The notes: generated by a model from the sequence alone, not told the origin. Positions 426-36,819 are shown, counted from the first letter of the stretch. The stretch is 50,401 nt of DNA from Nemertoderma westbladi (GCA_032718475.1 JAUCBJ010003076.1:1-50401); one strand, 5' to 3'. Program-made: numbers and translations.

Positions 426-472
426 CCCCCCCCCCCCCCCCCCCCCGAAAAAAAATCCTGGATCTGCCACTG
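426..472 (-). mobile_element. Probable terminus of a non-autonomous DNA transposon/MITE truncating BEL gag
   Basis: Poly-C then AAAAAAAATCCTGGATCTGCCACTG (reverse complement CAGTGGCAGATCCAGGA), resembling a common invertebrate TIR; BEL gag-like coding begins abruptly at 473. Confidence 0.4.
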
Positions 473-3400
473 GCATCGAGGGTAGCTTCACGACAGCATG
501 GCGGGCCCTAGGCAGGGAATACGGGCACCCGGCCAAGATCATCCGGCAGACCCTGAGGGGTATAACATCGGGTGGCCTACAGGATAACCCCGTTAGCATA
601 AAGACGTTTGCGAACAAAGTCGAGAAGGCGTTAATCGTGCTGAAAACACTAGACGCACCATACGAACTCAACGCATCTAATAACATCACCACGATAGCGC
701 AGGCACTGCCGATCTGGCTGCGCAATAAGTGGAGGAAATTCGCCTTCTCCACCCGGGAGAAGAAGGGTGCGGAACCGGGCCTAGAGGAAATGTCGAACTT
801 CCTCAACTACGAAGCCGAGTTGATCACGGACCCAGTCTATAGCGAGGATAGTCTGGGGAAAGGGGCCAAAGACCGAATATAACAGGCCGAAACCAGAACA
901 CAACACGGCAAACGCATTGCCAAAGCTTAGACAATCGCTGCCATACGCGGCGACGCAGGGGACTGCTAGTCCACATGTAGCCGGGGGTAGGGCCACACCA
1001 TGGAGCGGACAGGGGCAAAATAACAACACAAACAAACATAACCCCAACACGCCCAGTAGGCCGAACCCAAACAATAAGAACAGTAGGGATCTAGGTACGA
1101 ACATAAGTGCGATACGCAGCGCACTGTATAGGGACGGCTATAATCCAAACAACAAATGCCAATTGCATACGAACGCACTTCATCAGACCATGAACTGCAG
1201 ATATTGGCAAGCGTTGCCCAAACAAGATCAGGTAGAATATGCAAGAAAGAGTGGAATCTGTCATCGATGTGTGGCGGGCGGACACAGAGCTGATCAATGC
1301 AAAGAAACACCAATTAAGTTCGGTCAAGGCAAAGGGCAGACAATGGCGACAAGCACCGTAGGGGCGAAGAAAAGAGGAATGGTACTACTCGGGGTAGTAC
1401 CAGTGAGGGTGATCGGAGAAGGCGGTCGATCAGTAACCACACTGATGCTGGTCGACAGTGGAGCAGCCTTCACATTGGTGGATAATTGGGTGGCCGAAGA
1501 GATAGGACTAAAGACGAGGCCAAGTAGGATGGCGGTAACAACCATCTCCAGCAAAGATGAGGTCCTGGAGATGAGGACGGGACGGTGCAAGATAGCAGCA
1601 ATAGCACCGGGGTGCGATTATGGGGCGACCATCGACCCCATCCAGGTGATAGAATCGATCAATATCAACACCAGGCGACCAACCAACATCGAGGTCGAAC
1701 AATACAAATTCCTGGACAGTATCGATTTCTCCATACCAGAGGTGGACGTTAGGAAGGTATCCATTATAGTGGTAATGGACTGCCCGGCGGCCCACGAGAG
1801 AATGCAGACGGTCTTCGGCGAAGACAGATAGCGTGACCTGATGGCAATTTTAACACCATTCGGGTGGACGCTAAACGGCCCAATTAAAACTAAGATTCCA
1901 TTTAGGATGTCGGAGAGATCAGGGTGCATGTTTGCGGGAACTATGAGGGAGATGGAAGATGAAGGAGCAGAGGAGCAGCTCACGAGACTACTCAGACAGG
2001 ACTTTGAGGGACTAAAAGAGACCAGGGTCGGATCCTCGGTAGAAGATAAACAAGCGATGCAAAGTGTAAAGGAGTCGATGAGATGCGACAGGGGGCGGTA
2101 CACCATAGGGATGGTGTGGAAACAACCAAAATTACCGCTACCGGATAACAAGGGAATGGTAATCACGAGGCTTCGTAAACTGAAGCAAACGCTGAAGCGG
2201 AGCTCCGAGAAGGATGAGTACATTCACAAGACGATAAGGAAGTATGTCGAGAAAGGATGGGCCGTGGAGTTACCGGTTGACGAACCGAACACGGACAGGA
2301 CCTATTACCTGCCACTTCACGTGGCTCTAGATCCAAAGAAAGGTAACTTGCGGATGGTAGTTGACGCATCGGCTAAAACCAACGGCAAGTGCCTAAACGA
2401 TTATCTGCTGGAGGGCCCAAATATCTATAACTCGGGAATCGAGGTCCTGACTGAGATTTAGAAACAGGAGGCACGCCTTCACCTGTGACATTGAAGGCAT
2501 GTTTAACCAAGTCCGTGTGACGGAGGAGGATAGTGACAACCAGCGCTTCCTATGGTACAATGGCGACGAGGAACCGTCGACAATACCGATGTACAAGATG
2601 GTGGTGCAGAATATGGGGGCCAAGTCGTCCTCATTTACGACGACTGTGGCTGTAAGGGATACAGTAGAGGGGAAAGAGGAGAAGTATAGCGCCAAAGCCG
2701 TCGATATGATTCGGCGCGGCTTCTATGTAGACGACGGAATGGAGTCTGGAAATACGGTTAAAGAACTACTGGATACAGGGCGCAAGGTTCGCGACATCCT
2801 GAAGGGATCTGGGTTTAACCTGACCAAGTTCCAATCCAGCTCAGAGGAGTTTATGAAAGCCATAGAGGACAGACGGCCAGAGTTGACCATGGATAACCCT
2901 ACAACAGCCAAGGGACAGGACATGGCGAACAAAAGAGTAGAGTCTCAGCAGAAGGCACTGGGAATCGTGTGGAACCGGGAGACAGACGAGTTCAAGTATC
3001 AGCTGAGCCAGGAGGGTGCGGACATCCACACAAAGAGGGGCTATATATCGTACATGGCAAGGATATACGATCCCCTAGGCCTAGCATCCCCACTGTTAGT
3101 CACGGGGAAACAGATACTTAAGAAAGTATATAAGCTAAAGGACGAATAGGATACAGAGGTCCTGGAAGAAATCTGCAAGCAGTGGAGTAAGTGGACGGAG
3201 AGTTTAGAACATATGGGGACGTACAGCATGCCACGCGTGTACTTCCCGGATGGGGACATGACGAATCTGGATCTACATATGTTCTCCGATGCGTCATTGG
3301 AAGCATACGGAGTGGCACTCTACCTAGTACAATGAGAGGGGGCTCATAAGCCCAGACTTGCATTCAGCAAAGCAAAGTCGACGCCGCCAGATTCAGCATC

Positions 3401-5311
3401 GGTCCCAAAACTCGAGTTGACAGCTGCGAGATTAGGAGTAATGGCCACAGCCTACTTGATGGACACTATTCCCAACATAGTGGAAACACACTACTGGACA
3501 GACTCCATGGTAGTGCTCGGTTGGCTACACAATGAGAAGACGAGATACCCTATATTCGTTGCAAATAGGGTGGACAAAATAAGGGCGATGACAGAGTTGG
3601 AAAGGTGGCACTACTGCCCAACGGACGAGAACCCAGCAGACTTATTATCGAGGGGCGTGGCATGCCACACTTTCTTAAAGAAGGAAGTATTGTGGCAGCA
3701 CGGGCCACAGTTCCTGAATGATAGGATGGCCTTGCCACCAATGAAGAAGGTGGACCCGGGCTCAGAGGAAGTAGTACCAGAGGAAGAGGGAGAAGACTCA
3801 GAAGGTGAAGAGATATATAGTCAGATGGCAAGGGAGATCAGGGAGATGCAACCAAAATCAGAAGAATCGTGCGACAACCCCACGGATAAGCTCCTCAGCT
3901 ACAGCTCAAGTTGGTACAAGACCAAGAAGTTGGTAGCGTACTGGAGGCCCTTTGGGGATTTCCTCAAGGGAGTTGGCAAGGATGCCAAGAAGAAACCAAA
4001 CATCGATCTGGAGGGTGCGGCCAAGGCCGTAATACGATATGAACAGAGAAAGAACTACGGCGACGAAGTGGAGCGCATCAACAAACAACAACATCTTCGT
4101 CGGGACAGCGAGCTCATCACGCTGTCGCCACAACTCAATGATGATGGGATTCTAGTAATGAACTCCAGAGTGCTGAATAACAACAGCCTCATCATCCCAC
4201 CGAAACCCATTATCATCCCAAACAGATCGCCGATAGTCCACCAGATCATTTGGGACTCCCACAAGTCGATATTGCACGTGGGCACCAACCAGACCCTCAC
4301 AGAGATACGGAGGACCTTCTGGATCATGCAGCTAAGAAAGAAGGTAAAGGCGGTAGGGGCAGTGCCAGATCTGACGACGGATGAGAAAGGATCGGGCCGT
4401 ACAGGAGATGGCGCCATTACCGGCCAGTAGGGTGAGACAGCACGACCCGCCATTCACGCACTGCGGCATAGATATGTTCAGGCCGATAAAGATCAAGGTG
4501 ATGCGACACACGGAGAAACGCTACGGCATCATCTTCGTATGTAACAAGACGAGGGCAGTAGGAATAGAACTAGCCCAAGATGCAACCGCATCGGCATTCA
4601 TCAATGCCCTAGAGAGATTCAGAGACCGCAAAGGTGGGACGATCACAGTGATCTACTCCGACAATGTAACCAACTTTGTGGGGGTGGAGAACGAGCTGGC
4701 GGTGGCCTTGGACATCCTGGAAGGAGAGGAAGTCAGGGCAGCCATGAGGAGACGACAGATCAAGTAGGAGAGGAGGACGCCGTATGCTCCGCATACTTTA
4801 GGATGCGTCGAGAGACTCGTGGGTAGTTCCAAGCATCTGATGACGAAGTTGATGAACACCCACATGGTGACAGAAGATATACTAAGGACGGTGCTAGCTA
4901 AGTGCGAGGGCAACATCAATAGCAGACCGTTATACCCAGAAAATGACGACCCAGAATCACTAGACGTACTGACATCCAGTCATTTTCTGATGGAAAGGCC
5001 AGCGACCATCGACATGCGGGGTATAGACCCAGATGACATACCGGTACACTTCCGACAGAGTTGGAAAGTCGCTAAGGCGATAAGTGCAGAGTACTGGAGG
5101 AGGTGGGTTGAGGAATACCTACCCACACTGCATAGGAGGAGCAAGTGGAGAAATACCACTAGAGAGCTAAAGAAAGGTGATTTAGTAAGGTGACGAGGAT
5201 GGAAGAGTCCGATCGGTGGAAGTGCGGATAGGGGGTAAGATAGGAGCGAAAGACAGGAAAACCTACAGGAGGGCCGTAGGTAAATGTTGCCTGCTAGAAG
5301 GAGCACCATAG
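473..5311 (+). pseudogene. BEL gag-pol polyprotein, disrupted by stops and frameshifts
   Basis: Capsid-like region; Zn knuckles CQLHTNALHQTMNC and CHRCVAGGHRADQC; protease LVDSGA; RT FYVDDG; Pao RNase H (DLHMFSDASLEAYG, HYWTDSMVVL, NPADLLSRG); integrase HCGIDMFRP / IYSDNVTNF; C-terminal YWRRWVEEYLPTL. Confidence 0.93.
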
Positions 5312-5320
5312 AGTTTAGTC

Positions 5321-5378
5321 GTCCAAGTGTTGGATTGGGGGGGTGGGATTGAGGGCGAGACGCCCTTCCCACACAAAA
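5321..5378 (+). promoter_or_regulatory. Conserved double hairpin with internal polypurine (PPT-like) tract after the pol stop
   Basis: GTCCAA/TTGGAT stem, G7, then GTGGGA..AGGGCG-AGA-CGCCCT-TCCCAC stem and an A-tract; nearly identical at 20596-20653. Confidence 0.55.
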
Positions 5379-5485
5379 TATAAAAAAAAAATAATAATAA
5401 AATAATAAAATAATAGAAAGAGAGTAAGAGAAAGGAAAGTAATAGTACATAGTAAGTACGTAGTAAGTAAGTAGGCAGATAGAGG

Positions 5486-5905
5486 AGTTGGTTAGTAGTA
5501 AGAGGGTACGTAGTACCGTTAGAGGAGTTAGTTAGTAGTAAGAGGGTACATGTAGTACCGTTAGTGGAGTTAGTTAGTAGTAAGAGGGTACATGTAGTAC
5601 CGTTAGTGGAGTTAGTTAGTAGTAAGAGGGTACGTGTAGTACCGTTAGAGGTGTTAGTTAGTAGTAAGAGGGTACGTGTAGTACCGTTAGTGGAGTTAGT
5701 TAGTAGTAAGAGGGTATGTGTAGTACCGTTAGTGGAGTTAGTTAGTAGTAAGAGGGTACGTAGTTCCGTTAGTGGAGTTAGTTAGTAGTAAGAGGGTACG
5801 TAATACCGTAAGTGGAGTTAGTAAGTTAGTAGTTAGAGGGTATGCAGTACCGTTAGGAGAGTTAGTAGTAAGAGGGTACATAGAACCGTTAGAGGAGTTA
5901 GTTAG
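5486..5905 (+). repeat. ~42-bp tandem array (~10 copies) inside BEL copy 1
   Basis: Unit GTAGTACCGTTAGTGGAGTTAGTTAGTAGTAAGAGGGTAC(A/G)T; 14-aa periodicity in ORF 5564-5785; GGTAC/GTACC stem in each unit. Confidence 0.9.
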
Positions 5906-6345
5906 AGTGTTAGTAAGAGTTAGTAGTGTTAGTAAGAGTTAGTAGAGTTAGAGAGTTAGTAGGGTTAGTAGTGAGTAGTGAGAGGAGAGGGGGGCACGTG
6001 GGTACAGCAGCACAGATCGTGTAGGCCACACGAGACATACTACTGTACTGCACAGCCCGCAGAGTAGGTCAGAATGTTTGATACAGGGCCAGGAGGTTAC
6101 CTGGTGCAGACTAGCACAGCAAGGAGTAGCTAGTCTATCCTGTATACAAACCATAGGGGTTATTGAAATAAATAATCCATTATAAGTATTGATAGCACAG
6201 TTGTGGAATTAAAAATTAATGTTAAAATCAAAATTCGACAAATTATAGCAACAGTAGATAAAATATTCTAGAAGATAATAAAAGTAACTGACAAATTTAG
6301 GGAATTTAGGAAATTTAGTACTTTAAGGGGTAAAAATACTAGTAG

Positions 6346-8825
6346 ATACTAGTAGATTTCACCGAGAGGCATCCGGAGGAGAAGACGAGGGGATACTACG
6401 AGCGGTTAGAGAAGGGTCACAAGGCGCGAGCGCTGCAGGACCATTTCAGGGAGGTGCACGAGAGGCGGCTGGTCGGGACCTACGGGACGCCGTCGCTAGA
6501 CAACGCGATCCTCGAGCATTTCCACTACATGGTGAAGGGAGACGAGGCGAAGTTCGGGATACTGAAGTATCCAAGGGAACCACCGAGAAAGGATTGGAAG
6601 AGGTTCGTAGAGTCCGTCAGCAGGGGAGGATACATGGTCCTAGACGACGAAGGGACCGTGGAAGATGAGGAGGGGTTGGCCAGAACCATACTTCTGCATT
6701 TGGCTGCGCCAAATGGGGACATATTCCTGTTCGATCTGGGAATGTATTGGAAGAAGAACGGGCCGAAGTTGAACCGGTTGCCAAGGGCGGTGCAGAACGT
6801 AGTAAGGGAGAAGTTGACGATAAAGGTGGGATCGGCGATCCGCGACGATGCGGAGAGGATCATCGGTCCGGAGACCCCCAACCTCCTGGACATGCAAACG
6901 GTCTACATGGCTATGACAGGGCCAGCCGGGTTGGGACTAGTAGAGAACACAAGACATTGCGGAGCAGTGGCGATGGGCCAGCTAATGGGGCTCGAATGCC
7001 ACAAGCCAATGGACTGGGGTAAATTCAGGGAGGAGTACGGAGCGGAGTTGGCGAACTCGCTGAAGTGGGGAGCGAGGCCGGGGAAACAGGAGGTGTATCA
7101 ATTCCGGAGAGGAGCGATAAAGATATATCAGAAGTGATACATCCTGCAGGAGGATTGGATAATGATAGGTTTACTAAACCTATTCATGGCCGTGGTTATC
7201 GGAAGAGAGCCAATGGCTTTTCTGCTGTTGGGATCATCCCTGAACTACAGAAGAGCCTTCAAAGTGGCCTTCGAGGGTCTGGCAGACCACCCGGGGCTGA
7301 AGGGCGAGTCGGTATACTACAACTGCCGATATCTAGTAGACGGGGGGTGGATACACCATATCAGAGGTGGGAGAAGATGGAGGCGGATAGACTAGAGGAG
7401 AAGCGATTGGAAGAAATTGCTAGACGAGAAAGGAGGGAGGCAGATGAAAGAGAGGTGGAAGCTAGAGGAGAGGGCTATGGGTTCGAGGCTCAGGCCTTGG
7501 ACGATTTGCAGTGGGCATCAGGGAGCTCGGGCGAGTCTCTGGGGCGAGAGTTGGGATGGACGGGAGGATCGCCGAAACAGTCGACATTGGGATTGCAGGC
7601 AACACCCATGCCAGCGGGCGCCGAGGGCGATTTCGCGCAGAAAAGACCAGGGGAACTGGAAGGATGGAAAGTCACGGGCGAGAGCCAAGGTGGGAAGGGA
7701 CACAGCGGGTCTACCGGGATGCCGGGTTTGGATCTACTCCCAGCGGAGGATGAGGATGACGATGAGTTCGGGGAGATACCGCCCATCGAGAGGATCAGCC
7801 ACTCAGACAGGGACTGGTTTGGCGGGAGTGGTGACGGCCAGCGGGTCAAGGGCCTTCTGGGATAAAACTGGCAAGCGGGCCTCGGTGCATGAGGAGCCGG
7901 CGATGGATTTCGCGGGGAGCACCATCAGGTTGGGCGAGCAACTGGGAACGGCACCACGGGTAGTACTCGGAGAGATGATGCCAAGGCGAGATGAGGACAT
8001 AGACATGGACAGAGACGTCAACGTCCAGAAGTTTGCTTACCAGCGGCTCCATAGACCGAGGAGATCGCTTGGGGCGAAGGACGACTTGGGGCGGGATGCA
8101 TTGATACTTGGCTGTGATTACTGCGGGAGGCTTTAAAAAAAAGAGCTGCTTGTATCGATTCCAGAAGGGGACAAGTTGCCTCTACTGCCACAAGTCGAGT
8201 CACAGGATGGGGGCGCGTCCACGGTTGCACAACCGGTGTTCTAAGTGTAACTTCCGGGGGCACTACGGATGCCAGTGCGACTGGATGGACGACGAGGAGA
8301 AGTTTAAGATCTTCGAGGAGTGGGCCGATGTCGGCGTCATGACGCGGCAGCGAATGAAGGCCCAGAAATTCCGGTGGGGTTTCTTCAATATTAACCAGGA
8401 GGCCCACCTGGAAATCATTAAACGGAGACTTCCGTTTACTTACCAAGAAGTATCAACGGCGGCATCATATGCTGGAGTGATGAATACACAGGTATTTAGA
8501 TAGATGGGCGCCAGAGAACCGGGGAGAGTTCAGAGATTACCTGGCGGAGCATGTGCCGCAGGCCATGAAGGTGATCTTATGGGACGCTACTAGGGGAAAG
8601 CAGCAGGGGCATTCGGAGGGGCCACCTGCGAAGCGATACCGGGAGCTAATAACACCAGCGCCCAAGGAATCGACCATGGGAATCAGTAGGGAAGTAATGG
8701 CAAGGATGAGGAACCTTAAGGAGGACAAGAGCAAGGGAGCGGCGACAACCAGGAAGCGACCGAGACAGGACAACAACAGAGGGAAGGAACTGAGATGGTT
8801 CCCAAAGATGGGAGGAGTGGAGTAG
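6346..8825 (+). pseudogene. Extra ORF (ORF3) of BEL copy 1: DEDDy/WRN-like 3'-5' exonuclease + charged linker + zinc knuckles, disrupted
   Basis: YMVLDDEG (ExoI-like), LLHLAAPNGDIFLFDL, LPRAVQNVV..LTIKVGSAIRDDAERI (ExoII-like), NLLDMQ, Q(K*)YILQED (ExoIII-like); E/R/K-rich stretch; CDYCG, CLYCHKSSH, CSKCNFRGHYGCQC. Pieced together from ORFs 6454-7137, 7162-7395, 7065-7865, 7417-8136, 8108-8503 and 8553-8825. Confidence 0.75.
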
Positions 8826-9436
8826 GACTCGGAGGGGAGATGTGGGGATGCCTGGAAGGCACCACATGCGAAGTAATACGAACTTCTAAGTGCAAATTTA
8901 ATAAAAGTGCAATTAGTATATACGTATGTAGTAATCAATAGACTATGATCATATAATCAATATCCAATATAATCAAAGTAAATACTATAGTCATGTAACC
9001 TTTTTCCAACTAGCTAGTGGGAGTGGGGACCAACTGACTATGACAGGACGGGACACTAGGCAACTCACACTTCTTGAGTGCGACGGCACGAGAGTGGAGG
9101 GTGAGGCTCGTCAGGAGTGAGTGGAACGGAACGAGTAGGGGTTGAGTACAGGAACGCAGGGGAGAGAGTGAGAGGTGGTGTTGACGCGTGTGGAGAGAAT
9201 ACGGGTGCGATTCAAATGTGGGGGGCGAGGAGTAAGAGGCAGAGTGAGGGACAAAGAGGTCCGAAAGTAGAGTGGAGTTAGAGTGGAACTAGAGAAGTCA
9301 GAGTCAGTGCAGGGTAGAGTGGAGATATACAATTGTGTGAGATGAGTCCACAATTGTCTCGAACCGAGACGCCAGATGTCTTGGTGCAACATAGGTTGCG
9401 GTTGCACCAACAGGGGGTAGTAACATCATCCCCAGA

Positions 9437-9560: not shown

Positions 9561-9569
9561 GGGGGGGAG
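9561..9569 (+). promoter_or_regulatory. Polypurine tract
   Basis: GGGGGGGAG immediately before the TGT start of the LTR; same at 22146-22154. Confidence 0.85.
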
Positions 9570-10184
9570 TGTAAGCGGATTCAGTTCCGCTGCATTACCC
9601 TCATAAATGGGAAGTGGCACATTTTCAGTAATTTGTTGGAGGTATGAGATTGGGAATAACCAATCTCGTATCACAATCCAACACCAGGGACAACACAGCC
9701 CCAAAGCCACACAAAGGGAGGTTAGAGGTCAAACCACCTCAGGAGGGAAAGTAACCAACAGGGGCCAACAGGGGGGAAACACTCCCAGAAAGGGGAGAGG
9801 CGTGAAGTAGATCATTAGCCAATGGGGGCAAAGGAAGCATCCGCTAGGTAAAGGCCACAATAGTGTAGGAATAATGATAGATATATATATTATGCCGTTA
9901 CCGGTCTGGCTATCATTCAGTTGCTCAGTTATTGGTTTTAGTGCAGAGCGGTGACATCCTTCACCGTCACCGTCACCAATATATCCACACCTACCGGTAT
10001 ACCATACTGTTACCGAGCTGTCATCATCAAACTATACTGTGCTATCATTCAGTCATTCGGTTATTGATATTAATATTCAGAGCATCAAAGAGATAACAAC
10101 GAACTCTTATTTTTACTATTCCGCGAACACGGTGACGCATAGTCTAACTAACCGGTCGGAGCCGTCACAATTGATCCCGTCACA
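9570..10184 (+). repeat. 3' LTR of BEL copy 1
   Basis: Starts TGTAAGCGGATTC and ends GATCCCGTCACA as in copy 2 LTRs; CCAAT (~9819), TATA-like (~9881) and TCAGT initiator-like motifs. Confidence 0.85.
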
Positions 10185-11255
10185 AACGAGATTAGGGCAA
10201 ACAACTGGCTGTGTCTGCTTCTCCTATCAGGCAGGAGGTCTACAAACACGACATTGCAAAGTCCCTCCCCCGTTGCTATAGGTCACAGCAAGAGGCCTCC
10301 AGTTATTAGTGAGAAGAACACCTTAGGAGGGGAGGGGGGGGGGGACTGGACGCAAAACCCACCTTGGCGAATTATTATCCCGCTTCAATGTTAAATTCTG
10401 AAATTAGGGAAAGGAGCAGATTAAGCACTACATAAACAAACAAATAAATCCTAAAAGGAGAGCCAATCCAATCCAAACAATAACAATTTATTTTAGAATA
10501 TGAATAATATACAGTATATACAATTTGTGTTTACCACTTTTACCTTAATTAAAAGGAATATTTCATCAAGTCTTTCCATAATTAATGTCACTAAATATGC
10601 ATTTTGGTGAATATAATAAAGGTATAAATGAAATGTTATATTTCTTTGCGGATAGGAGTTTGGTCGACCAGTTTCAAGTATGTAGTGAAAATGGACCGTG
10701 GTGGTACAATAGCAGCTTTGGGATGTACTGGTATTGAAATTGAAACAATACGTAGAAGCGGAAATACTTACCTTACTGAGAAGGCCAAGATAACGAAACT
10801 ATATTTTGTATGTAGTAATCATATGCTGATTGGATTCATGTTTCGCTCAAGATAAATAACCTGTAATAATTTAATGTACTACCGGTACTATAATATTCAT
10901 ATGTAAGATAATGGATATCATAGGTGCGGTATCAAGGCAACAATTAAATTATCATATATATATGTACATACTGGATTTATATATATGGCGTTTGTATATG
11001 GAATATATGGAATTGAAATGAATCTTGCTATTGAAAATTAATGACAATTTTAATTGATGTTTCCGTGAATTAAATAAGCGCACCTGCCAATTTGATTGAA
11101 TTGATATAATATATATACGTAAACTACTAATCAGTATTATTTTACTGTTTAAAATATATTTGGTTTCACTAAATTTCCCAGAATCCCAATAGTATCTACT
11201 CTAGAATGATATAATTTAGAATCCAAAATTTTTAGAATACAGCAGTGAATATAGT

Positions 11256-11851: not shown

Positions 11852-12060
11852 AGAAAAAAACAATGGTGTAAGGACTTTCAGCCACAAAATGTGTTATAGT
11901 GTATTGCAGACGTTTCAATAAACTGTATCACTGCATTAATAAAGATAAACATTGTTTATTGAAACGTCTGCAATACACTATAACACCTTTTGTGGCTGAA
12001 AGTCCTTACACCATTGTTTTTTCTATTATTCTCGCCACATTCAATTAATCATGTCTTAAT
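11852..12060. mobile_element. Inverted-repeat insertion, probably a Penelope-like terminal fragment
   Basis: ~70-bp near-perfect inverted arms (11852-11923 / 11954-12024), flanking 13-bp direct repeat TGTTTTCATTAAA (11839-11851, 12061-12073), degenerate hammerhead-like core at 11930-11974. Confidence 0.55.
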
Positions 12061-13364: not shown

Positions 13365-14490
13365 TACTACTAGTACTAGTATCGGTATGCTGCATTGCAG
13401 CTGCATTTTTAAGAATACTGTGCCGGCTTGTCGACAAAATTGCGCCGCCACAACTCCATATCACCCATGACATTTGCTGGATCATCCGCATCTTCAAGGC
13501 CAGTGTCCTTTAAGATGCGTCTCAAGAAAGTGTCATGGGCTGTCCACCATGCTTATTCACTCCATGAGGCCGCCAAAGTACAAGATTATGCACTGGCTGG
13601 TCCTCACGGCGAAATCAATGTCCTGAAAAGCGGAGGCCATTTTGTTCTAGTGTCAAGCTTGGGGGAATCAATGAGACACCTCCAATGTTATATAGTGTCT
13701 GGTTGGAGATGTGTGCATTGTACTTGACACAATGAACCCGGCGTAGCATTCTTGTGAATGTGCTATCCAGAGATTTGGTGTCCTCAGCAGTTAGAGCCCA
13801 GCATGGACTCCCATAGAGGAGTACTGGAACTACTGCTGCTCTAAATAATCGGACCTTAAGTTTCCGATTAATTCTCGGTGACTTCCAAGTCCTGGAGAGC
13901 CTATTCAAGGCTGCCCATGCCTTTCCCTTACGTATTCGAAGGTCCTCACCTGACTTCCGGATCCATGATCCCAGGTAACAGAAGTCGTCCACATGCTCAA
14001 GCATACCATCATTTGAGCTTATGCTCATCCGATCAGAGACTTGCTTAGGACTTTCAAAGTTAACTGTCAGAATTTTGGTCTTTCTGGAGTTAATAAAAAG
14101 ACCAACACTAGAAGCAGCATGTTCTAATGAGCTGAGGAGCCGTTGGGCTCCCTCTAATGATTCTGAGAGTACTCCTAAGTCATCAGCAAAGTCTAGATCA
14201 GTTAGGTACTTGGCAGGATTTCCTCGACTTCTGGAGCTGGCGGGGTGGAGTTATCATCACCCCATCATCATTATGATGATCTAAGGACATGCGTAGAACA
14301 TAGTCAACCACAATTATGAACAAGAATGGTGCAAGTGTGTCTCCCTGGAGGACACCCCATAACACTTCAAATGGTTCTGTGTCACCATCAACAGTAGACA
14401 CAAATGTTGTCGAACCAGAACAGATCTGATTGCTGCAATAATTTCATCAGGAATCCCATATAATGAAAGTATGCTGAACAATCGCTCAAT
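13365..14490 (-). mobile_element. RTE-like LINE remnant (RT C-terminal half)
   Basis: GVLQGDTLAPFLFIIVVDYVLR, DLDFADD, VDDFCYLGSW, LLYGSPCW; short-repeat tail near 13365-13385. Confidence 0.85.
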
Positions 14491-16218: not shown

Positions 16219-16765
16219 TGTTAGCGAATCAATTCCGCCTCACCAAACCCCATAAAGTGAGCCATTAAACCGTAAAGCAATATTGGGAGCACGAGGTTGA
16301 TTACCAATATCAACCTCATGTCACCCCAATAAAGTGGGAAGGAGAAACACACAACAAGGGTCAGGGGCCAAACCCCTAACAGAGAGAGAACAACAGGGGC
16401 AACGGGAAACACACCAGGGAAGGTGAAAGGGCGAGAAGTGGGATATTAGCCAATGGCGGGGGACAGCATCGACTAGGTACAGTAATATGGCCAACTGTGC
16501 AGTACATATATTACCTGTTGGTGCTTCCCTATTCAGTCAGTTTACTCAGTCAGATCAGTAGGGTGGAACGGTGACTTCTATCACCATCCGCTACCACCAT
16601 CATACTTATCTACCAGTAACCGTGTCATACTATACTATATATGTCAACTATATTATGCCTTTATACATATTACCGAACATCAGAACTCTTTTACCTTTCA
16701 CACACGGCGGGGACGCATAGATAGAAAACCCAACGGATAAACCGGGATCCGTAGATCCCGTCACA
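16219..16765 (+). repeat. 5' LTR of BEL copy 2
   Basis: TGTTAGCGAATC...GATCCCGTCACA, directly repeated at 22155. Confidence 0.92.
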
Positions 16766-16868
16766 GTGATAGAAACAAACTGCCCGAGCTGACTGCAACA
16801 GTGATAGAATTAGATCCACCCAGCTGCCCTGACAGTGATAGAACTAGATCCAACCAACTGGGCTGACA
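16763..16868 (+). repeat. Three 34-35 bp leader repeats at the PBS position
   Basis: ACAGTGATAGAA at 16763, 16798 and 16832; no TGG-initiated PBS directly after the LTR. Confidence 0.8.
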
Positions 16869-16898
16869 GACTGTGGCTGCCAGCCACCAAAGACAAAG

Positions 16899-19800
16899 AT
16901 GAGTCGAGAGAGAGAAACGACACCGCCGCGGACCCCGGACGGCGATCTAACGATCCGCGAGGCCACGGCGAGACGATACGGACCCACGACGCCGGTCGAT
17001 GCTACGTCGACCATGTCGATACGAGTAACCCGGCGAACCAAGATGTGGGGGGTCGTCTACGAGGAGAGAGCGAGTCGAGTAGAGGAGAGAGTGAGACGGG
17101 AGAGGAGAGAGACGAGTCGACACAGGGCGGCGGTCGATATGCCGATGTCGCCGGCCAGCCACAGGCCGAGAAGGACGAACGGCCCACCGGAACGGCAACG
17201 GTGGAGCCGACGGTACGACGTCGGACCCGGAGGGAGAGAGGAGATGTCGACGACGAGGACGTCGGGGTCGTCCGGCTCCGACGAGCCTACGCCGCGACCC
17301 GGGAACAACTGAAGGAAGCTAGAGGAGGGGCTGAGATAGACCAGGTGAAGTTGAGGAGACGACTAGGTGAGTCGAACAGATACTTTGATTACCTAGTGCG
17401 TTCTGGGCAGGGAGAACTGGCCGAGGAGAGAGCAAGAGGGGTTGCCTTCGATCTGTTTGGGCTATGGGAACATAGGGGTATGGGGCCTGGTGTAGTGTAC
17501 ATAGGGCCATACTTAGTCGATGCCAGGGAAGTTAAGTTAGTGGGTTGGGCGGGACCGCACGAGGGCGAATCCAAGGTTAGCTCCGAGGATTCGGCCTCGT
17601 CGGTCAGCGAGGACCCCGGAAAGCGGGGGAAAGTTAGTAGGACGGAGGGGCGGCGGAAGTCCGTCGCAACCGATAAGTCTGCTACATCCTCCGCAAAAGA
17701 AAGACGGGTGCGAGAGAGTGAACGCATGGCATATAAATTAAAAATGGAAGAATTAGAGTGGCGACTGAGGGGAAGGAAGGAGCAAGAGAGTGAACGCGAA
17801 GAGCGTGAGGCAAGAGAACAGAGCGTGCGGTACACTTTACAGTACGTACAGCAACCGTACGGGCGAGGGGGGTAGTAGTAGTACGTTAGAAATAGTTAAT
17901 ATTAATAGTACCGTAGTAGATAACCCTAATCCCTTTATTACAGGAAATAATATTTTACCTGGCAGTAGTAATTTAAATTTAAATTCAAATAATAATATTA
18001 ATTCAAATATTCAGAATAATCAAAATAATTCAAATAATTCGAATAGCAATTTAAATTTTGAAAATAATAATAATTCTAATTTAAATAATTTAAATAATAA
18101 TCCCGTTTCAAATTCTAATAATTCTAATAATTTAATTGATTTAGGGGATTTAATTGATTTAACAAATAATATTGGGTATGGTGCTATTAATGTGAACGTG
18201 CCAGACGTGTATAGCCCGGCAGACGGCGGCCTGGCAGGCCACGTAGTTAGTAGGCAGGAAGTGGCAGGGTTGAGCCAACCCGACGGCGGCCTGGTAGGCC
18301 ACGTAGTTGGTAGGCAGGAGGTAGCGGGGTTGAGCCAACCCCAGGTGGGCCTAATGGGCCACGCAGTAGTAGAGAGAGAGGCGGGGGTGAATAGACCCAG
18401 CCCTAGTAGAGACAGTGCGTCGACTAGAAAGGGGTGTAGAGACGAAGTGAGAGATAGTGAAGTTAGATGTGGCGAGTGGGGGGGGGGGCTACGAGCGCCC
18501 CACCACATAAGATTAGTGGCGAGAGAAAGGGGGTAGAGAGTGTCCGACAAGAGGGACGCAGAAGTGTAGTAAGAGATAGTGAAGTTAGAAGTAGCGGGTG
18601 GGGGGGGGGCTACGGGCACCCCACCGCGAGGGATTAGTAGCGAGAGAGGGGGGGCAGGGAGTGTCCCACAGGCGTCGGCGGATAATGCGCGGGCCGAATT
18701 AGGTAAACCGCAACACCCGGCGACGGAGAGTAATAGGGGGATTGCGAGTATCCCCAGCGGCGTGCGATCGAGCAGAGAGAGACAGGTTGACGTCGCGAGA
18801 GGGCGGGCGACGGAACGTCGAGCCCAGTCAGAAGAGAGAAGATTAGCAGAGTTTAACCGAGAGGTCGAAGAGAGAAGAAAGGAAGATAATAGAAGAGTCG
18901 TTGCTAGGAGCAACCGGAGAGCGAGGACGGATAGCGAGCCGTCGCTAGTAGAGATGGAGGTAGGGAGTCAGTGGGGTCGAACTTCGGGAGATTGCCGTCA
19001 CCCCGGAGAAACGCACCGCACGCCAAGAGAGGGGTACAGGACGTACCGATACGAAGACGAGAGCAAGATAGGGGATCGAAGAGAAGCTTCCCAACGGGAT
19101 ATAGCTGCCGATCGAGAGTACGGTAGTCGCGGGGAGATTCGAGATTCAAGAAAAATAAACTTCGATTCGGAAGGGCACATGCAGACTGCAGGACATACTG
19201 TAGGCCTTACTGCACATACTATTATAGGCCATGCTGGGAGAGATAGAGTAAGCGATAGGGTAGCGCGGACGACGGGATTAAACCCGGAAGTCGCGGAGTA
19301 CATACCGGTAGGTAGGCAGGAAGTGGGTAGGCCTATATCGGTACAGCAGCATGACTATAATACACAGGGACATAACATATATCCAGGGGAGGGGGGAGTT
19401 ATTGGAGATAGATGTATGGGCCCCAATACATTAACATCAACCCCAGTACCAAACATACCGGCCGGGGGGGGGGACAGGGTGACATTCCCCCATCACAATA
19501 TCGACAATATACCCCAATAGGAGCAAGAACATCGAACCCCTTGGACGAGAGAAGGTCGTGCGGACAGTCGCTACCACACGCGGCCATACAGGGGACTGCT
19601 AGTCCACAGCTAGCTGGTAGCAGAGCCACACTGTGGCAGGGACGGAAAGAAAATAACACCAAAAATAAACACAATCCCAATATACCCAGTAGGCCGAGTC
19701 TAGACAATCGAAACACTAAATCGGTACATATAAACCTAGGCGCGATACGTGAAGGACTATACAGGAAACGCTATAATCCAGGATTCGAATGTCAATTACA

Positions 19801-20584
19801 TCGGGACGGAACCCATAAGACCAGGAGTTGTAAGCACTGGCAAGCGTTGCCCAAACAAGATCATATAGCCTACACAGACGCAAACGGACTATGTCATCGA
19901 TGTGTGGTAGAAGGACACAGATCCGGAGAGTGTAGAGAAACAGCAGCTACAAACACGACGGGAGAGAAGAAGAAGAGAAAAGTACTACTCGGGGTAGTGA
20001 AGATATCAGAAGAGGGCGGTCGATCAGTAACGACATGTTACCATGGGTGCATGCTACCAGGCACCGTAGACGCAGAGCGCAAAGAGGAGAAACAGGAGAT
20101 AGTAGATCCAGATAGGGAGGTGACAGTAAGAAAGTGGGCAGAGGAGAGTAGGTTTCCCAGCAAGCATCGGTATGGAGATGGAGCGGAGCGGATGGCGAGG
20201 TGTCCGGAGGACAACACTCCGGGGGAGTGTCCAGAGGAGTGTCCGGAAGAGACGCAGGTCCGGTTTGGAGGCATACCGACAAGGGGGAAGTCGGGAAGGA
20301 AGGCAGGACGGAAAGGGATAGGACTACTATTGTACCTACTGTTCTGCCTGTTCTTTCACTTTCTATTCATTCTGCCGGCGGGAGACAACAAGGAGAGAGG
20401 TGGCATTTTGATGCCAGGAGATGAGCTAGTTAAGAAGGCGGCGGAGAGACCCGATTTCAGGGTGGCAGAAGAGGGAGAACCAATTCCTGGTGAGATGGAA
20501 TTGGCGAAGAGAGTGCGGCGAATCCTACAGGACCTACAGGAGCAGCAGTGGGAGAGTGCCTGTTGGAAGAATCGCCCTAGTTAG
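16899..20584 (+). pseudogene. Disrupted gag-like polyprotein of BEL copy 2
   Basis: R/E-rich N-terminal ORFs, Asn-rich stretch, knuckles CQLHRDGTHKTRSC and CHRCVVEGHRSGEC, start of protease (VLLGVV..GGRSVTT), then deletion; the last ~50 nt match the pol end of copy 1. Confidence 0.8.
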
Positions 20585-20719
20585 GAGGTTTAGTCGTCCA
20601 ATATTTTGGACCGAGGGGGGTGGGAATGAGGGCGAGACGCCCTTCCCACAAAAATAATTATTTAATTAAAAATAATAAAATAATTAAATAATAGTTAGTA
20701 GAGGATAGTAAGAAGTAGT

Positions 20720-21560
20720 AGTTAGATGTTAGATAGGGAGAGTAGGTTAGAAGGCGGCGGAGTATAGGGAGTGTGGTATAAACATACCACGGGAGTAGAG
20801 GGTACGTAGTACCGGGAGTAGGTTAGAAGGCGGCAGGGTAAGGGAGTGTGGCATATTGTCATGCCACGAGTAGTAGTAGGGAGGTTGTGGGCACCGTAAG
20901 CGCCACGTAGAAGGATAGTAAGTAGAGAAGTTAGAAGGCGGCGGGGTAAGAGAGTGTGGCATATTGTCATGCCACGAGTAGTAGTAGGGGGGTCGTGGGC
21001 ACCGGAAGCGCCACGTAGAAAGTAGTAGTAGGGGGGTCGTGGGCACCGGAAGCGCCACGTAGAAAGTAGCGGTGGTAGAGAGGTTGTGGGCACCGGAAGC
21101 GCCACGTAGAAAGTAGCAAGAGAGTGGTTGTGGGCACCGGAAGCGCCACGTAGAAAGTAGTAGCGGAGAGTGGTCGTGGGCACCGGAAGCGCCACGTAGA
21201 AAGTAGTAAGAGAGGGGTTGTGGGCACCGGAAGCGCCACGTAGAAAGTAGTAAGAGAGTGGTTGTGGGCACCGGAAGCGCCACGTAGAAAGTAGTAGCAG
21301 AGAGTGGTTGTGGGCACCGCAAGCGCCACGTAGATAGAGGTATTAGTGGAGGTAGAGTTAGTAAGAGGGTACGTAGTACCGGTTGTGGTTGTGGGCACCG
21401 TTAGCGCCACGTAGATGGAGGTAGAGTTAGTAAGAGGGTACGTTGTACCGGTTGTGGTTGTGGGCACCGTTAGCGCCACGTAGATAAAGGTAGAGTTAGT
21501 AAGAGGGTTTTAGTTAGAAGTAGTAGTAGAATGGTTGTGGGCACCACAAGCGCCACGTAG
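20720..21560 (+). repeat. Tandem array of 12 hairpin-containing units (~44-47 bp core period) in BEL copy 2
   Basis: GTGGGCACCGGAAGCGCCACGTAG core x12 with purine-rich spacers; also includes copy-1-type GAGGGTACGTAGTACC units. Confidence 0.9.
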
Positions 21561-22154
21561 ATGGAGGATTTTAATCAGAGTTAGAAAAGAGTTAGTAGAC
21601 TTAGCAGAAAGTTAGAGAGTTCTAGTTAGAGTTAGTAGAAAGTTAGAGGCTTTTAGTTAGAGCTAAAAGTAGTATGAGTTAGCAGAGAGTAGAGTTAGTA
21701 GTTAGTAGAGTTAGGAGTTAGTTAGAGTTAGTAAGAGAGTTAGATAGTTAGCAAGTGAGTAGTAGGTAGATAGTATGATAGCACAGGGGTAGCATTAGAG
21801 GTCAGGGCCTTAAAGAGTGGCAGGGAGTAGAGAGGAGATAGTGAAAGGAACTGTTGGCGAGAGAGAAGAGTGCGATTCAGGTGTGGGGAGAGGGTAAGAG
21901 CGAGTTGAGTCAGAGAGCGGAGTTAGAGTGGTGAGAGTGTTGGGGAAACAAAAATTGTGTGAGAGAAGCGCACGATCGGCCCGACACGAGACGCCAGAGG
22001 GTAGTGAGATCATACCCATAGGGAGCGGCCTGGAAAGCCGACTCCAAGAAAATAACTCCATCCCACACCCGATAATTGATCGAGTTCCAGCGGAATTGAA
22101 GCGCACTTAGTGGTTGATGCTATCTTCTCACCGGGAAGATAGCATGGGGGGGAG

Positions 22155-22559
22155 TGTTAGCGAATCAATTCCGCCTCACCAAACCCCATAAAGTGAGCCA
22201 TTAAACCATAAAGGCGAGAAGTAAGGGCGAGAAGTGGGATATTAGCCAATGGGGGGACAGCATCGACTAGGTACAGTAATATGGCCAACTGTGCAGTACA
22301 TATATTACCTGTTGGTGCTTCCCTATTCAGTCAGTTTACTCAGTCAGATCAGTAGGGTGGAACGGTGACTTCTATCACCGTCCGCTACCGCCATCATACT
22401 TATCTACCGGTAACCGTGTCATACTATACTATATATGTCAACTATATTATACCTTTATACATATTACCGAACATCAGAACTCTTTTACCTTTCACACACG
22501 GCGGGGACGCGTAGATAGAAAACCCAACGGATAAACCGGGATCCGTAGATCCCGTCACA
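22155..22559 (+). repeat. 3' LTR of BEL copy 2 (about 140 bp shorter than the 5' LTR in U3)
   Basis: Same ends as the 5' LTR; deletion after CCATAAAG with a small GGCGAGAAGT duplication. Confidence 0.92.
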
Positions 22560-34562: not shown

Positions 34563-34706
34563 GAGACCTCGTGTTACTGTCGTGCTATGTGTCGTGTTAC
34601 TTTCTGACTTTATTAACAAATGAAAACATTATTTAGTTACAGAATCGAAACTGTATTTAAATTCAAATATAGCATCGATATTAATGAATACTATTAAACA
34701 GATTTA

Positions 34707-36812
34707 ACTGAAAAGTCCAGTAGTATACCGCTTACCAGATCCTAGTAACGATGTATCTTACCGTAAGATCCAGTAATGTATACGGGCTCGTACAGTATCT
34801 GACAACAAATCCCAGTCCAGGGTATCTAAACAAACAGATACAAATACGCGAACAACTACTGGCGAGGAACAGAGCCTAGTGTCTATTCTACGTACGTGAG
34901 CGGGTCTAATGCCTACGAACTAGACAAAAGGATGCCTGTCCTCTAACCGGTGAGGCAGATGTACAGTTACAGTGACAGACCAAACTCACGGGAAAACAAT
35001 CCCCGCGCAGCGAATCCTAACTATCGCTGACAGACCTAAATGCCGTAACTTGCCGCGGTGTGATTTATATGGCTTATATACGAGCTAGTGGGTTAACAGA
35101 CCTAGCGTAACAATACTGACACCTGTACTTAATCAGTCTAAAGGGGGTCGTGCCTAAAGTAACAATACTGTCGTCAGGAAAAAACAGTCTAATAAGTAAA
35201 TACTCCATTTTTGCCGTAACTAAATATCAGATCCTAAATTTACAAACTACGAATAGTAAATTACAAATAAATACTGCCTAAAAGTAATCTAAAGTGCGCT
35301 ATAACTAGTAGAACTCTAAGGGTACATATGTTTTAGGGCGTGTGTGTGTGGGTGTGTTACAATAAAACAATTTTGGTGTATCCCATTGTACTAGGTTTTA
35401 GTGATTTCTGACCAAAACAATACCGTGCGCTAGCTACGAAAATAAGCTAGTCGCGCTCTGTAGAACTTTATTTATACTTACAAAATGACGTCAAAGCTCT
35501 CTCCTTCCTATCCACAACTCAACCGGGCAATTACGGTGTTAGTAACTACACCCGTGATCAGCACAAATACCAGATTCTGGTTGTAAGATAAGAAATAGGG
35601 GTTAATTGCTACCGTACGTTAGCTGCTCTGGTATACAAATTTGATTCTAGAATTTTGTTGCCGTGGTGGTTAGCAGCAATACCTATCAGTACGTGGCAAG
35701 GCGCGGTAGGATATTAATAAACCTCCCTAGACCAAGCGAAGTGCCGGTAGAAGAAATACTCCTTGCCTGATCAAATAACTCAGGTTCAGACAGGGGGGGG
35801 GGGGGGTACTAAATGTATAATCTACAAAGCAAACCGGTACCGAACTGTCAGTATTGCGAATCACTAAATTATGGAACATATGCTGTCTGTACCTAATATG
35901 TACTCGTGTACTGACGAACGGCAATAGTTCACACCTGTAAGAGATACAGGTTAACCCAGGGATTTGCAATACAGCATCCTGACTGAATCTAGCTATCTGA
36001 TCCTAAATTTTGCGGCATCCCAGGACGGCGTCACGCTTACCCTGATCTATAGGTCTTACTTCAGGCAAGGGCGTCAAACAAAGTCTTACCTTCCTCTGAA
36101 ATCGGGCGCTGCATGGCAAAGTGGAGTATTTCGAAGGGGTGAAGGGGGTGCGCGGTCTAATCTAATGTGGGGGCTAGCGTGTTGTGGACATCTTCCCTGC
36201 GTTGCTGACGGCCTAACGGTCTAGGCGGCCATCCTCCCAATGCTTGGCTGTCCCAATGGTGGACAATTAGAAATATACATGTTCAAAAGTTTACAGTATA
36301 TTTACGTAATTTACAAAGATTTATCAACCTGAACACTAACAAATAATTCAAGGTTAACAAGATAAGTCAAGAGTAGGATAGCTAACAAGTTACAAGATAG
36401 TGTGTTAACAAGTAAGATTAGGTTAGAAGTAAGATTAGGTTAGTGATAACTGAAGGGCAAACCGGCCCTTATATAGAAAATCTGGGACATAGAATCCGCT
36501 AGAACCTTCCAGGGCATTCCATTGCCTCACATTGGAGCAATAAGATGTTCCATGCCCTATGATTGGCCCAACTCATCGTTCCATACGTTGTACGCACCTC
36601 ATTGGTTTATCAAATTAGATCAAATGAAAATAAATTGCCCAAAAATTGCCTTAACCATCTGACCACTGCGCCATTAGAATTACCTACGGGTTTATGTGTA
36701 CCAATATGAATAGGCATATTACATTACTGTAATTTAATCAAAATGTGTCGGATTTTAGAAAGTTTTTACGTTAAACTACAAATGCTACTTTATAGTGAAA
36801 TAATCCATCACG
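34707..36812. repeat. ~2.1 kb direct repeat, copy A
   Basis: Highly similar to 44265-46423; lacks about 60 bp of the tRNA-like segment. Confidence 0.92.
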
Positions 36813-36819
36813 ATCTGAT

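What the first reader, a model, noticed from the sequence alone, without database searches (positions are those of the whole stretch)
6346..8825. BEL/Pao retrotransposon carrying an extra DEDDy 3'-5' exonuclease / zinc-knuckle gene
Seen: between the pol stop (5311) and the PPT/LTR (9561) lies a same-strand, ~800-codon disrupted frame with LDDEG, LLHLA..IFLFDL, IKVGSAIRDD, NLLDMQ and YILQED motifs, then a charged helical linker, an acidic patch and three Cys/His clusters (CDYC, CLYCHKSSH, CSKCNFRGHYGCQC). Established: this motif spacing is that of DnaQ-superfamily DEDDy exonucleases (WRN-exo/RNase D/EXD type); BEL elements normally have only gag-pol, occasionally env; DEDDy ORF3s have been reported in bdelloid rotifer LTR elements, so the domain has precedent. 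Inference: a BEL lineage with an exonuclease-knuckle fusion may be undescribed, and the protein could trim primers or cDNA ends, proofread RT, or counter small-RNA silencing.
Basis: partly seen in the sequence, partly recalled or inferred. Interest (0 to 1): 0.85.

Follow-up and report, generated by a model that had tools for sequence, protein, structure and literature searches.

The report
BEL retrotransposon carries exonuclease-knuckle gene
A multi-copy BEL/Pao jumping gene carries, between its polymerase gene and its right-hand end, a broken extra gene whose reading frame differs between copies mostly at silent sites and whose protein is likely an RNA-trimming nuclease joined to zinc knuckles; similar cargo is known from another group of jumping genes in rotifers, so this looks like a new host for a known kind of cargo, with an untested job.

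Summary
Observation confirmed. Between the pol stop (5311) and the polypurine tract/LTR (9561/9570) of a 5'-truncated BEL/Pao element lies a same-strand frame path 6346-8825 (about 826 codons; one stop, four frame changes). It looks like an old part of the family. Its synonymous codon use matches the element's own pol rather than a neighbouring BEL family. Public runs cover it at the same order of summed depth as pol. 21 of 31 listed segregating differences fall on third codon positions. The DEDDy call is likely but rests on remote signals. No Pfam, NCBIfam or sequence hit was found. Glocal alignment to DEDDy profiles gave z 4.9-6.4 (0 of 1000 shuffles) and a language-model search gave a PF01612 lead. 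A DEDDy-guided model is supportive but partly circular. ExoI and ExoII are clear; ExoIII reads YxxxE-D, not YxxxD. One complete and two partial CCHC knuckles follow. Precedents are the rotifer Juno/Vesta DEDDy ORF3 and trypanosome RNase D (exonuclease plus CCHC). Ten literature searches showed no BEL case, but I recall, unverified, an exonuclease in nematode BEL elements. Likeliest role: trans-acting 3'-5' RNA trimming, perhaps of host small RNAs; untested. New variant of a known kind; interest 0.55.

The parts
470..1390 (+). 3' part of gag (5' end and 5' LTR missing in this copy); two Cys/His boxes seen, one atypical
   Evidence: DUF1759 E 6e-4, below the curated cut-off; 70% match of 930-1312 to the non-autonomous relative
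1391..5311 (+). broken pol: protease, RT, RNase H, integrase, DUF5641; stop at 5309-5311
   Evidence: Asp_protease_2, RVT_1, Peptidase_A17, Integrase_H2C2, rve and DUF5641 in that order; end frame
5313..5990 (+). post-pol spacer with a 42-bp tandem array; first 130 bp and the repeat motif shared with the non-autonomous relative
   Evidence: (families D2, D5)
6151..6343 (+). AT-rich block (25% GC) in front of the extra frame; apparently not shared by most copies
   Evidence: composition; low depth at 6300-6338 and loose ends at 6344
6346..7340 (+). ORF3 part 1: likely DEDDy 3'-5' exonuclease domain (ExoI D6643/E6649, ExoII D6847, WxxRP 7066-7080, ExoIII-like Y7138...E7150-D7153); in-frame stop at 7135-7137
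   Evidence: selection
7341..8100 (+). ORF3 part 2: charged linker, Gly/Ser-rich stretch and acidic patch; two frame changes
   Evidence: no family hit
8113..8278 (+). ORF3 part 3: three Cys/His clusters, one complete CCHC knuckle (8237-8278) and two partial
   Evidence: shuffle test; atlas lead zf-CCHC 0.88 with recognition 2286, just under the 2300 guide
8279..8825 (+). ORF3 part 4: unassigned C-terminal region with one frame change; stop 8823-8825
   Evidence: no family hit
8900..8905 (+). AATAAA in an AT-rich stretch after the ORF3 stop; possible polyadenylation signal (inference)
   Evidence: sequence
9561..9569 (+). polypurine tract
   Evidence: sequence; same tract before the relative's 3' LTR
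9570..10184 (+). 3' LTR, 615 bp, TG...CA; same terminal 12 bases as the relative's LTRs
   Evidence: a contig of depth 21.7 spans the junction to the flank (record 8)
16219..22559 (+). non-autonomous relative with two LTRs and a 5-bp target duplication; lacks both pol and ORF3
   Evidence: (D7, 98% over 300 nt)

Best explanation
This is a third gene of a multi-copy BEL/Pao retrotransposon family, broken in this copy, that likely encodes a DEDDy 3'-5' exonuclease joined by a long linker to CCHC zinc knuckles and likely works in trans by gripping single-stranded RNA with the knuckles and trimming its 3' end, most likely host small RNAs of the silencing pathway. Shown: position, strand, frame path, element-like codon use, presence in many copies, excess of silent differences, one full knuckle. 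Inferred from remote similarity (about 0.9): the DEDDy fold. Inferred (about 0.85): it travels with pol in other copies. Inferred by analogy (about 0.6): intact copies are catalytically active on RNA, as trypanosome RNase D is. Guessed (about 0.4 of the functional options): the targets are piRNA/siRNA-type molecules. Expression from a separate subgenomic RNA is inferred from the 1-kb gap after pol and from the rotifer case.
For: Residency. Synonymous codon use of all 5 of 5 ORF3 pieces favours the element's own pol over the second BEL family in the window (log-likelihood ratios 60.8, 17.1, 9.2, 10.6, 9.9); controls were held-out gag +34.7 and BEL2 second half -65.0. Purine share is 0.62-0.65 against 0.61 in pol and 0.46-0.50 in the flanks. 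Multi-copy. In run X1, summed contig depth is 6.8-32 thousand over ORF3 bins, 15-45 thousand over pol bins and 22 at the 5' flank bin; X2 and X3 are similar; a diverged sample (X5) also holds pol and ORF3 pieces, and one 712-base X5 contig spans 8193-8899 across the ORF3 stop. The tool warns that depth is no copy number. Selection. Of 40 listed differences in 6300-7450, 31 segregate: 21 at third positions (p 9e-5) and 20 synonymous (p 4e-4). The 9 nearly fixed against this copy are 7 non-synonymous, as expected of decay. Dropping 6 rows beside an indel pair leaves 17 of 25 (p 4e-4). Fold. Atlas top three clusters carry PF01612 on 11-31% of members, scores 0.87-0.89. hmmsearch P 0.0012 and 0.0008 with two profiles, 0 of 1000 shuffles each. 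Glocal z 4.9 and 6.4, 0 of 1000 shuffles, 0 of 35 real control windows. MAFFT put D, E, K, W, Q and Y of the query on columns invariant in 64 DEDDy proteins. The guided model has pLDDT 74 and pTM 0.71, with block means of 81-90 in the blocks that hold the three motifs. Its best Foldseek rows are Egalitarian, trypanosome RNase D, EXD2, Exd1 and Nibbler, none of which was in the alignment. Analogy: TbRND has Exo plus C-terminal CCHC fingers that bind the RNA (PMC7797062, abstract and passages). Trans action: the relative at 16219-22559 moved (TSD, 98% LTRs) without ORF3.
Against: No Pfam or NCBIfam hit. No homologue in 2912 and 1888 word-sharing candidates, among PDB sequences, or among 1.84 billion representatives, whose only 2 hits were repeat proteins. 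Three of five local profiles gave nothing. hhalign probabilities were 0.15-5%. The NrnC profile was not significant glocally (138 of 1000). With native gap costs the best path did not reach YILQED; it did so only after I cheapened insertions, and the C-terminal half alone was weak (61, 5 and 52 of 1000). 5 of 300 shuffles matched as many conserved columns as the query (8 of 14). The unguided model failed (pLDDT 34), and the guided one is biased by its alignment. ExoIII has Glu at the last Asp column. Only 40 of 248 differences were listed, chosen by the tool. No contig bridges pol and ORF3 in another copy. There is no functional or expression evidence of any kind.
Confidence: 0.45

Rival explanations
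1. The protein keeps the DEDDy fold but works as a non-catalytic RNA binder: an Egalitarian-like adaptor that carries element RNA, or an Exd1/Nibbler-like decoy in the small-RNA pathway.
For: Egalitarian gives the six best Foldseek rows. Egalitarian keeps all five catalytic residues yet does not need them for RNA binding or function, and it binds the I-factor retrotransposon signal (10.1101/2025.08.03.668247, passages). ExoIII here is non-canonical, and there are insertions around it.
Against: ExoI D/E, ExoII D and ExoIII Y are all present in this copy, and the listed difference at 7140 leaves the Tyr unchanged in all four runs. In the wider structural search RNase D-type enzymes rank first and Egalitarian 13th. 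Ranks from a guided model are weak evidence either way.
Confidence: 0.2
2. The enzyme acts inside the particle on the element's own nucleic acids: the knuckles bring it in on genomic RNA, and it trims the tRNA primer, RNA 3' ends or cDNA ends, or proofreads for RT.
For: CCHC knuckles are the nucleocapsid RNA-binding module (established knowledge; atlas rows include Gag clusters). The rotifer paper proposes 3'-end processing of element RNA (PMC5408684, discussion). RNase D trims structured RNA.
Against: BEL/Pao elements are described with gag, pol and sometimes env only (PMC8742986, whole text), so replication does not generally need this step. The domain is not fused to RT, and family-A polymerase exonuclease domains mostly rank below stand-alone RNases.
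Confidence: 0.2
3. The segment is an independent nested insertion or a recently captured host gene riding passively in some copies.
For: AT-rich blocks lie on both sides. The non-autonomous relative lacks the segment. No contig links pol and ORF3 in other copies.
Against: Codon use and purine bias are those of the element. Differences among copies are mostly silent. No terminal inverted repeats were found; the only direct matches across the two edges are a 9-mer and an AT-rich 10-mer, the size expected by chance. The relative also lacks pol, so it is a deletion derivative. The 3' junction is kept in a diverged sample.
Confidence: 0.07
4. The frame is a real accessory gene, but the exonuclease likeness is a chance pattern and the fold is something else.
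For: No curated family or sequence hit; hhalign not significant; unguided folding failed.
Against: The language-model lead came before any targeted test. Collinear ExoI-ExoII alignment has z 4.9-6.4 against shuffles and real controls. A WxxRP match to E. coli RNase D appears in a plain pairwise comparison (E 0.002).
Confidence: 0.08

Closest known systems
DEDDy-type ORF3 of bdelloid rotifer LTR retrotransposons Juno1/2 and Vesta2/5, and of Athena Terminons (PMC5408684; parts 1-3 of 5 read, abstract to discussion)
   Same: Non-env third ORF downstream of pol in an LTR retrotransposon; RNase D-like DEDDy domain; function untested there too.
   Different: Here the carrier is BEL/Pao. The protein is about 800 codons with a long linker, CCHC knuckles and a further tail. 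The rotifer motif is reported as DEED, while ExoII here keeps Asp and the last position reads Glu-Asp. Common origin could not be tested: no rotifer sequence was at hand.
Trypanosoma brucei RNase D, TbRND (PMC7797062; abstract and passages)
   Same: 3'-5' Exo domain followed by CCHC zinc fingers; among the best structural rows (Foldseek rank 7; Z 13.1, rmsd 3.5, 184 aligned).
   Different: TbRND is a cellular enzyme with four fingers on a 28-residue linker. Here about 300 codons separate ExoIII from the knuckles, and only one knuckle is complete. No sequence similarity was detected; the shared architecture is probably convergent (inference).
Egalitarian / EXD1 / EXD2 / Nibbler (mut-7) / WRN-exo group of PF01612
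   Same: KVG..I..D form of ExoII fits the WRN/EXD2-like profile best among the single profiles; top Foldseek rows.
   Different: No assignment to a subfamily is possible: identity to any row is 21% or less, and no tree could be built.
Canonical BEL/Pao (Belpaoviridae) elements (PMC8742986 whole text; PMC3118150 passages)
   Same: gag, PR-RT-RH-IN order, Peptidase_A17, DUF5641, short PPT, LTR within 0.2-1.2 kb.
   Different: Those texts list only gag, pol and sometimes env; the word exonuclease does not occur in PMC3118150. I recall, from no call, that an exonuclease domain may have been noted in nematode Cer-type BEL elements; the paper I tried was not held.

Membership tests
BEL/Pao LTR retrotransposon (Belpaoviridae) | pol order protease, RT, RNase H, integrase | tested here: met
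BEL/Pao LTR retrotransposon (Belpaoviridae) | BEL-type domains Peptidase_A17 (PF05380) and DUF5641 | tested here: met
   29.8 and 25 bits against cut-off 22.3; 45.4 against 23.1. DUF1759 only below cut-off.
BEL/Pao LTR retrotransposon (Belpaoviridae) | PPT of about 10 nt followed by a TG...CA LTR of 0.2-1.2 kb | tested here: met
   9561-9569; 9570-10184
BEL/Pao LTR retrotransposon (Belpaoviridae) | 5' LTR, primer-binding site and target-site duplication | tested here: inconclusive
   this copy is 5'-truncated; the relative at 16219-22559 has both LTRs and a 5-bp TSD
BEL/Pao LTR retrotransposon (Belpaoviridae) | three Cys-His boxes in gag | tested here: inconclusive
   two boxes seen by eye, one atypical
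DEDDy 3'-5' exonucleases (PF01612; RNase D/WRN/EXD) | ExoI DxE after a hydrophobic strand | tested here: met
   D6643, E6649 on invariant columns
DEDDy 3'-5' exonucleases (PF01612; RNase D/WRN/EXD) | ExoII K...D | tested here: met
DEDDy 3'-5' exonucleases (PF01612; RNase D/WRN/EXD) | ExoIII YxxxD | tested here: inconclusive
   Tyr present, Glu at the Asp column with Asp next; reached only with long insertions; stop codon just before it
DEDDy 3'-5' exonucleases (PF01612; RNase D/WRN/EXD) | score above the Pfam gathering threshold | tested here: not met
   0 families; so this is filed as working like, and probably derived from, a DEDDy enzyme, not as a curated member
DEDDy 3'-5' exonucleases (PF01612; RNase D/WRN/EXD) | DnaQ/RNase H-like fold | tested here: inconclusive
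   guided model matches at Z 14.1, rmsd 3.5, 172 aligned but was built on a DEDDy alignment; unguided model pLDDT 34
DEDDy 3'-5' exonucleases (PF01612; RNase D/WRN/EXD) | two-metal 3'-5' exonuclease activity | not testable with these tools
   needs an assay
Rotifer Juno/Vesta DEDDy ORF3 | separate ORF downstream of pol, inside the 3' LTR | tested here: met
Rotifer Juno/Vesta DEDDy ORF3 | carried by Juno/Vesta (or Athena) elements | tested here: not met
   carrier is BEL/Pao
Rotifer Juno/Vesta DEDDy ORF3 | common descent with the rotifer ORF pool | not testable with these tools
   no rotifer ORF3 sequence was retrieved
TbRND-type RNase D with zinc fingers | Exo domain plus C-terminal CCHC fingers | tested here: met
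   one full and two partial knuckles, subject to the frame path
TbRND-type RNase D with zinc fingers | four fingers on a short linker | tested here: not met
   linker of about 300 codons against 28 residues

The most novel reading that the evidence does not exclude
A BEL/Pao lineage captured a eukaryotic Egalitarian/EXD/Nibbler-type nuclease long ago, fused it to zinc knuckles and keeps it under selection as a retrotransposon-encoded suppressor that destroys host piRNAs or siRNAs. With the rotifer cases and unreviewed Gypsy cases from this scan, that would make 'DEDD nuclease plus knuckle' a convergent anti-silencing weapon of LTR elements.
Probability: 0.2. Interest if true: 0.85.

Novelty: new variant of a known kind. 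Interest (0 to 1): 0.55.

Why it matters
BEL/Pao elements are described as gag-pol with an occasional env. A selected, non-env enzymatic third gene in this group extends the rotifer observation to a separate LTR superfamily and points to repeated recruitment of DEDDy nucleases by retroelements. The rotifer paper left the function open. A high-copy family with an exonuclease-knuckle protein gives a tractable case for asking whether animal retrotransposons encode their own small-RNA-degrading or RNA-processing enzymes. The protein has no detectable relative in the large protein collections searched, so such genes are being missed by standard annotation.

Tried and rejected
No whole genome is held, so other copies could not be read directly. 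Sequence searches that found nothing useful: (two repeat-protein artefacts). The metagenome scan for BEL pol gave 3 loci of 1.6-3.4 kb, too short to show what follows integrase. No RNA holder was listed, which says nothing on expression. Single-sequence folding failed and was not used for fold searches. One search used wrong frames for some comparison proteins and was discarded; one search repeated it. The set first taken for EXD2-like proteins was NrnC and gave no signal. Alignment A1 had a wrong frame in one row and was replaced by A2. The hhalign shuffle run timed out. A 10-mer shared by 6276 and 8899 was considered as a target duplication and rejected: both lie in AT-rich blocks, the match is chance-sized, and no poly(A) tail precedes the second. 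A non-standard genetic code was considered because two pol copies share a TGA; stops in the window's elements are a mix of TAG, TGA and TAA, so it was not pursued. No tree was built: there are no homologues to place. The two other BEL pol copies in the window end before or in the integrase region and cannot show ORF3. Literature searches for a BEL element with an exonuclease (one search was for TbRND) showed none; the library lacks most subscription papers. Also read in passages without bearing on the question: PMC5718144, PMC6431247, PMC11662393, PMC5603734, PMC554778, PMC2774666, PMC3985635. No supplements were read; those of PMC3118150 hold BEL sequences that could bear on how widespread such genes are. 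Genome G139 (unpublished) appeared; nothing rests on it.

Full report
The element. Pfam finds DUF1759 (weak), aspartyl protease, RT, Peptidase_A17, the integrase zinc domain and core, and DUF5641, in that order on the + strand between about 480 and 5190. The pol frame ends at 5309-5311. A 9-nt polypurine tract at 9561-9569 is followed by a 615-bp LTR, 9570-10184, whose first and last bases match those of a related element at 16219-22559. That relative has two LTRs 98% alike over 300 nt and a 5-bp target duplication, but it has only gag-like sequence and lacks pol and the segment in question. The copy under study has lost its 5' LTR and the start of gag. No whole genome is held.

The observation. 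The coding path runs from 6346 to 8825 with one in-frame stop (7135-7137) and four frame changes. A codon model trained on the element's gag-pol frames picks this same path in 150-nt windows and scores the AT-rich blocks on either side as non-coding. One CX2CX4HX4C knuckle is complete (5 of 20000 shuffles), a second lacks its last ligand, and a third is cut by a frame change. The start at 6346 is only where this copy's frame opens: loose ends at 6344 in runs X2 and X5 show different upstream sequence in other copies, and one contig in run X4 carries about 21 more bases near 6665-6674.

Is it part of the family? Three lines say yes. First, synonymous codon use in 5 of 5 pieces favours the element's own pol over the second BEL family in the window (60.8, 17.1, 9.2, 10.6, 9.9 log units). 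The controls behave: held-out gag +34.7, the other family's second half -65.0. Second, public DNA runs of the same species cover the segment at the same order of summed contig depth as pol and far above the 5' flank (X1: 6.8-32 thousand, 15-45 thousand, 22). A diverged sample also holds both, with one contig crossing the ORF3 stop into the 3' region. The tool warns that this depth is not a copy number; X2 and X3 are one sample; the best holder may be the window's source; and no contig bridges pol and ORF3. Third, of the 40 differences listed (of 248) in 6300-7450, the 31 that segregate among copies fall 21 times on third positions (p 9e-5) and are synonymous 20 times (p 4e-4), while 7 of the 9 nearly private to this copy change the amino acid. 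Leaving out 6 rows next to an indel pair gives 17 of 25. No inverted ends or convincing target duplication bound the segment. A nested insertion is therefore unlikely.

Is it a DEDDy exonuclease? Standard searches fail: 0 Pfam or NCBIfam families, no homologues, and only two repeat-protein artefacts among 1.84 billion representatives. The untargeted language-model search put PF01612-bearing clusters first (0.87-0.89, a lead only). I then built profiles from bacterial DEDDy proteins: 30 RNase D, 40 NrnC and 38 mostly bacterial WRN/EXD2-like. With local HMMER, 3 of 5 profiles gave nothing significant; the WRN/EXD2-like and the combined profile gave P 0.0012 and 0.0008, with 0 of 1000 shuffles as high. 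A glocal alignment gave z 4.9 (WRN/EXD2-like), 2.5 (RNase D; 15 of 1000), 1.2 (NrnC; 138 of 1000) and 6.4 (combined; 0 of 1000 shuffles, 0 of 35 real control windows), with ExoI to ExoII collinear. The YILQED motif was reached only after I made insertions cheaper, and the C-terminal half alone is weak. MAFFT placed the query's D, E, K, W, Q and Y on invariant columns, but 5 of 300 shuffles matched as many of 14 conserved columns. hhalign was never significant. An unguided model failed. A model guided by 64 DEDDy rows reached pLDDT 74, high in the blocks holding the three motifs and lowest in an insertion and at the C-terminal end. It matched RNase D-type chains at Z 13-14 and, in Foldseek, Egalitarian, trypanosome RNase D, EXD2, Exd1 and Nibbler first. 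That match is partly circular; the eukaryotic ranking is a weak hint of origin. Overall I put the DEDDy fold at about 0.9. ExoI and ExoII are canonical; ExoIII has Glu at the usual Asp column with Asp next, so activity is less sure.

How it likely works. The closest worked example of this architecture is trypanosome RNase D, where CCHC fingers hold single-stranded RNA for a 3'-5' Exo domain (PMC7797062, abstract and passages). By analogy the intact protein likely binds RNA through its knuckles and trims 3' ends. It likely acts in trans, since the relative lacking it still moved. BEL/Pao replication does not generally need such a gene (PMC8742986, whole text), and several structural neighbours are small-RNA or RNA-localisation factors, so I favour host small RNAs as targets. 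This last step is a guess. A non-catalytic binder is a real rival, because Egalitarian keeps its catalytic residues without needing them (10.1101/2025.08.03.668247, passages). Processing of the element's own RNA, primer or cDNA is the other.

Compared with what is known. DEDDy third ORFs are described in rotifer Juno and Vesta elements and in Terminons, with activity undemonstrated (PMC5408684, parts 1-3 of 5). The exonuclease-knuckle pairing is known from TbRND. Nine searches aimed at BEL or LTR elements with an exonuclease showed no BEL case, and a survey of BEL/Pao in 62 genomes does not use the word (PMC3118150, passages). I recall, from no call, that nematode Cer-type BEL elements may have been reported with an exonuclease domain; the paper I tried is not held, so novelty for BEL is not secure. 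Unchecked notes from this scan describe Gypsy elements with Rrp6-like exonuclease plus knuckle genes in other genomes; these are leads, not support.

Verdict. The feature is real, selected and very likely a DEDDy-knuckle accessory gene of a BEL/Pao family, seen here in a decayed copy. It is a new variant of a known kind. Interest 0.55; the anti-silencing reading, at about 0.2 in its full form, would deserve 0.85.

Noticed in passing
window 3333-3335 and the matching codon of the minus-strand pol copy at 46819-48915: Two pol copies only 77% alike share an in-frame TGA at the same codon of the RNase H region. Independent decay at one codon, a shared dead ancestor or read-through are all possible; unexplained.
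   Followed up: partly
window 16219-22559: Young non-autonomous BEL relative (5-bp TSD, LTRs 98% alike over 300 nt) with about 3.8 kb of long, unassigned frames in the gag position, including an Asn-rich stretch, and a 44-46-bp tandem array sharing a motif with the 42-bp array at 5468-5990.
   Followed up: partly
window about 34700-46450, minus strand: A second BEL family (DUF1759, Peptidase_A17) between long direct repeats about 9.56 kb apart and more than 2 kb long, well above the 0.2-1.2 kb given for the family; its pol stops after RNase H.
   Followed up: partly
window 7135-7137: No difference at the ORF3 in-frame stop appears among the 40 listed rows in either read-laying run (22, 37), although a site three bases away is listed in all runs. 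The lists are cut, so whether the stop is shared by many copies is open.
   Followed up: partly
window 10185-10280: The sequence right after the 3' LTR loosely resembles the start of the relative's internal region; it may be a stub of a tandem unit.
   Followed up: no
window 11855-12022: A 69-bp inverted repeat, 99% complementary, with a 30-bp spacer.
   Followed up: no
window 46220-46295, minus strand: A tRNA-like stretch inside the long repeat of the second BEL element, by eye; ARAGORN found no tRNA gene in the window.
   Followed up: partly
window 13615-14250 and 25351-26328, minus strand: Fragments of a LINE-type RT and of a Copia-like RT/RNase H (the class labels are mine, from recall).
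   Followed up: no
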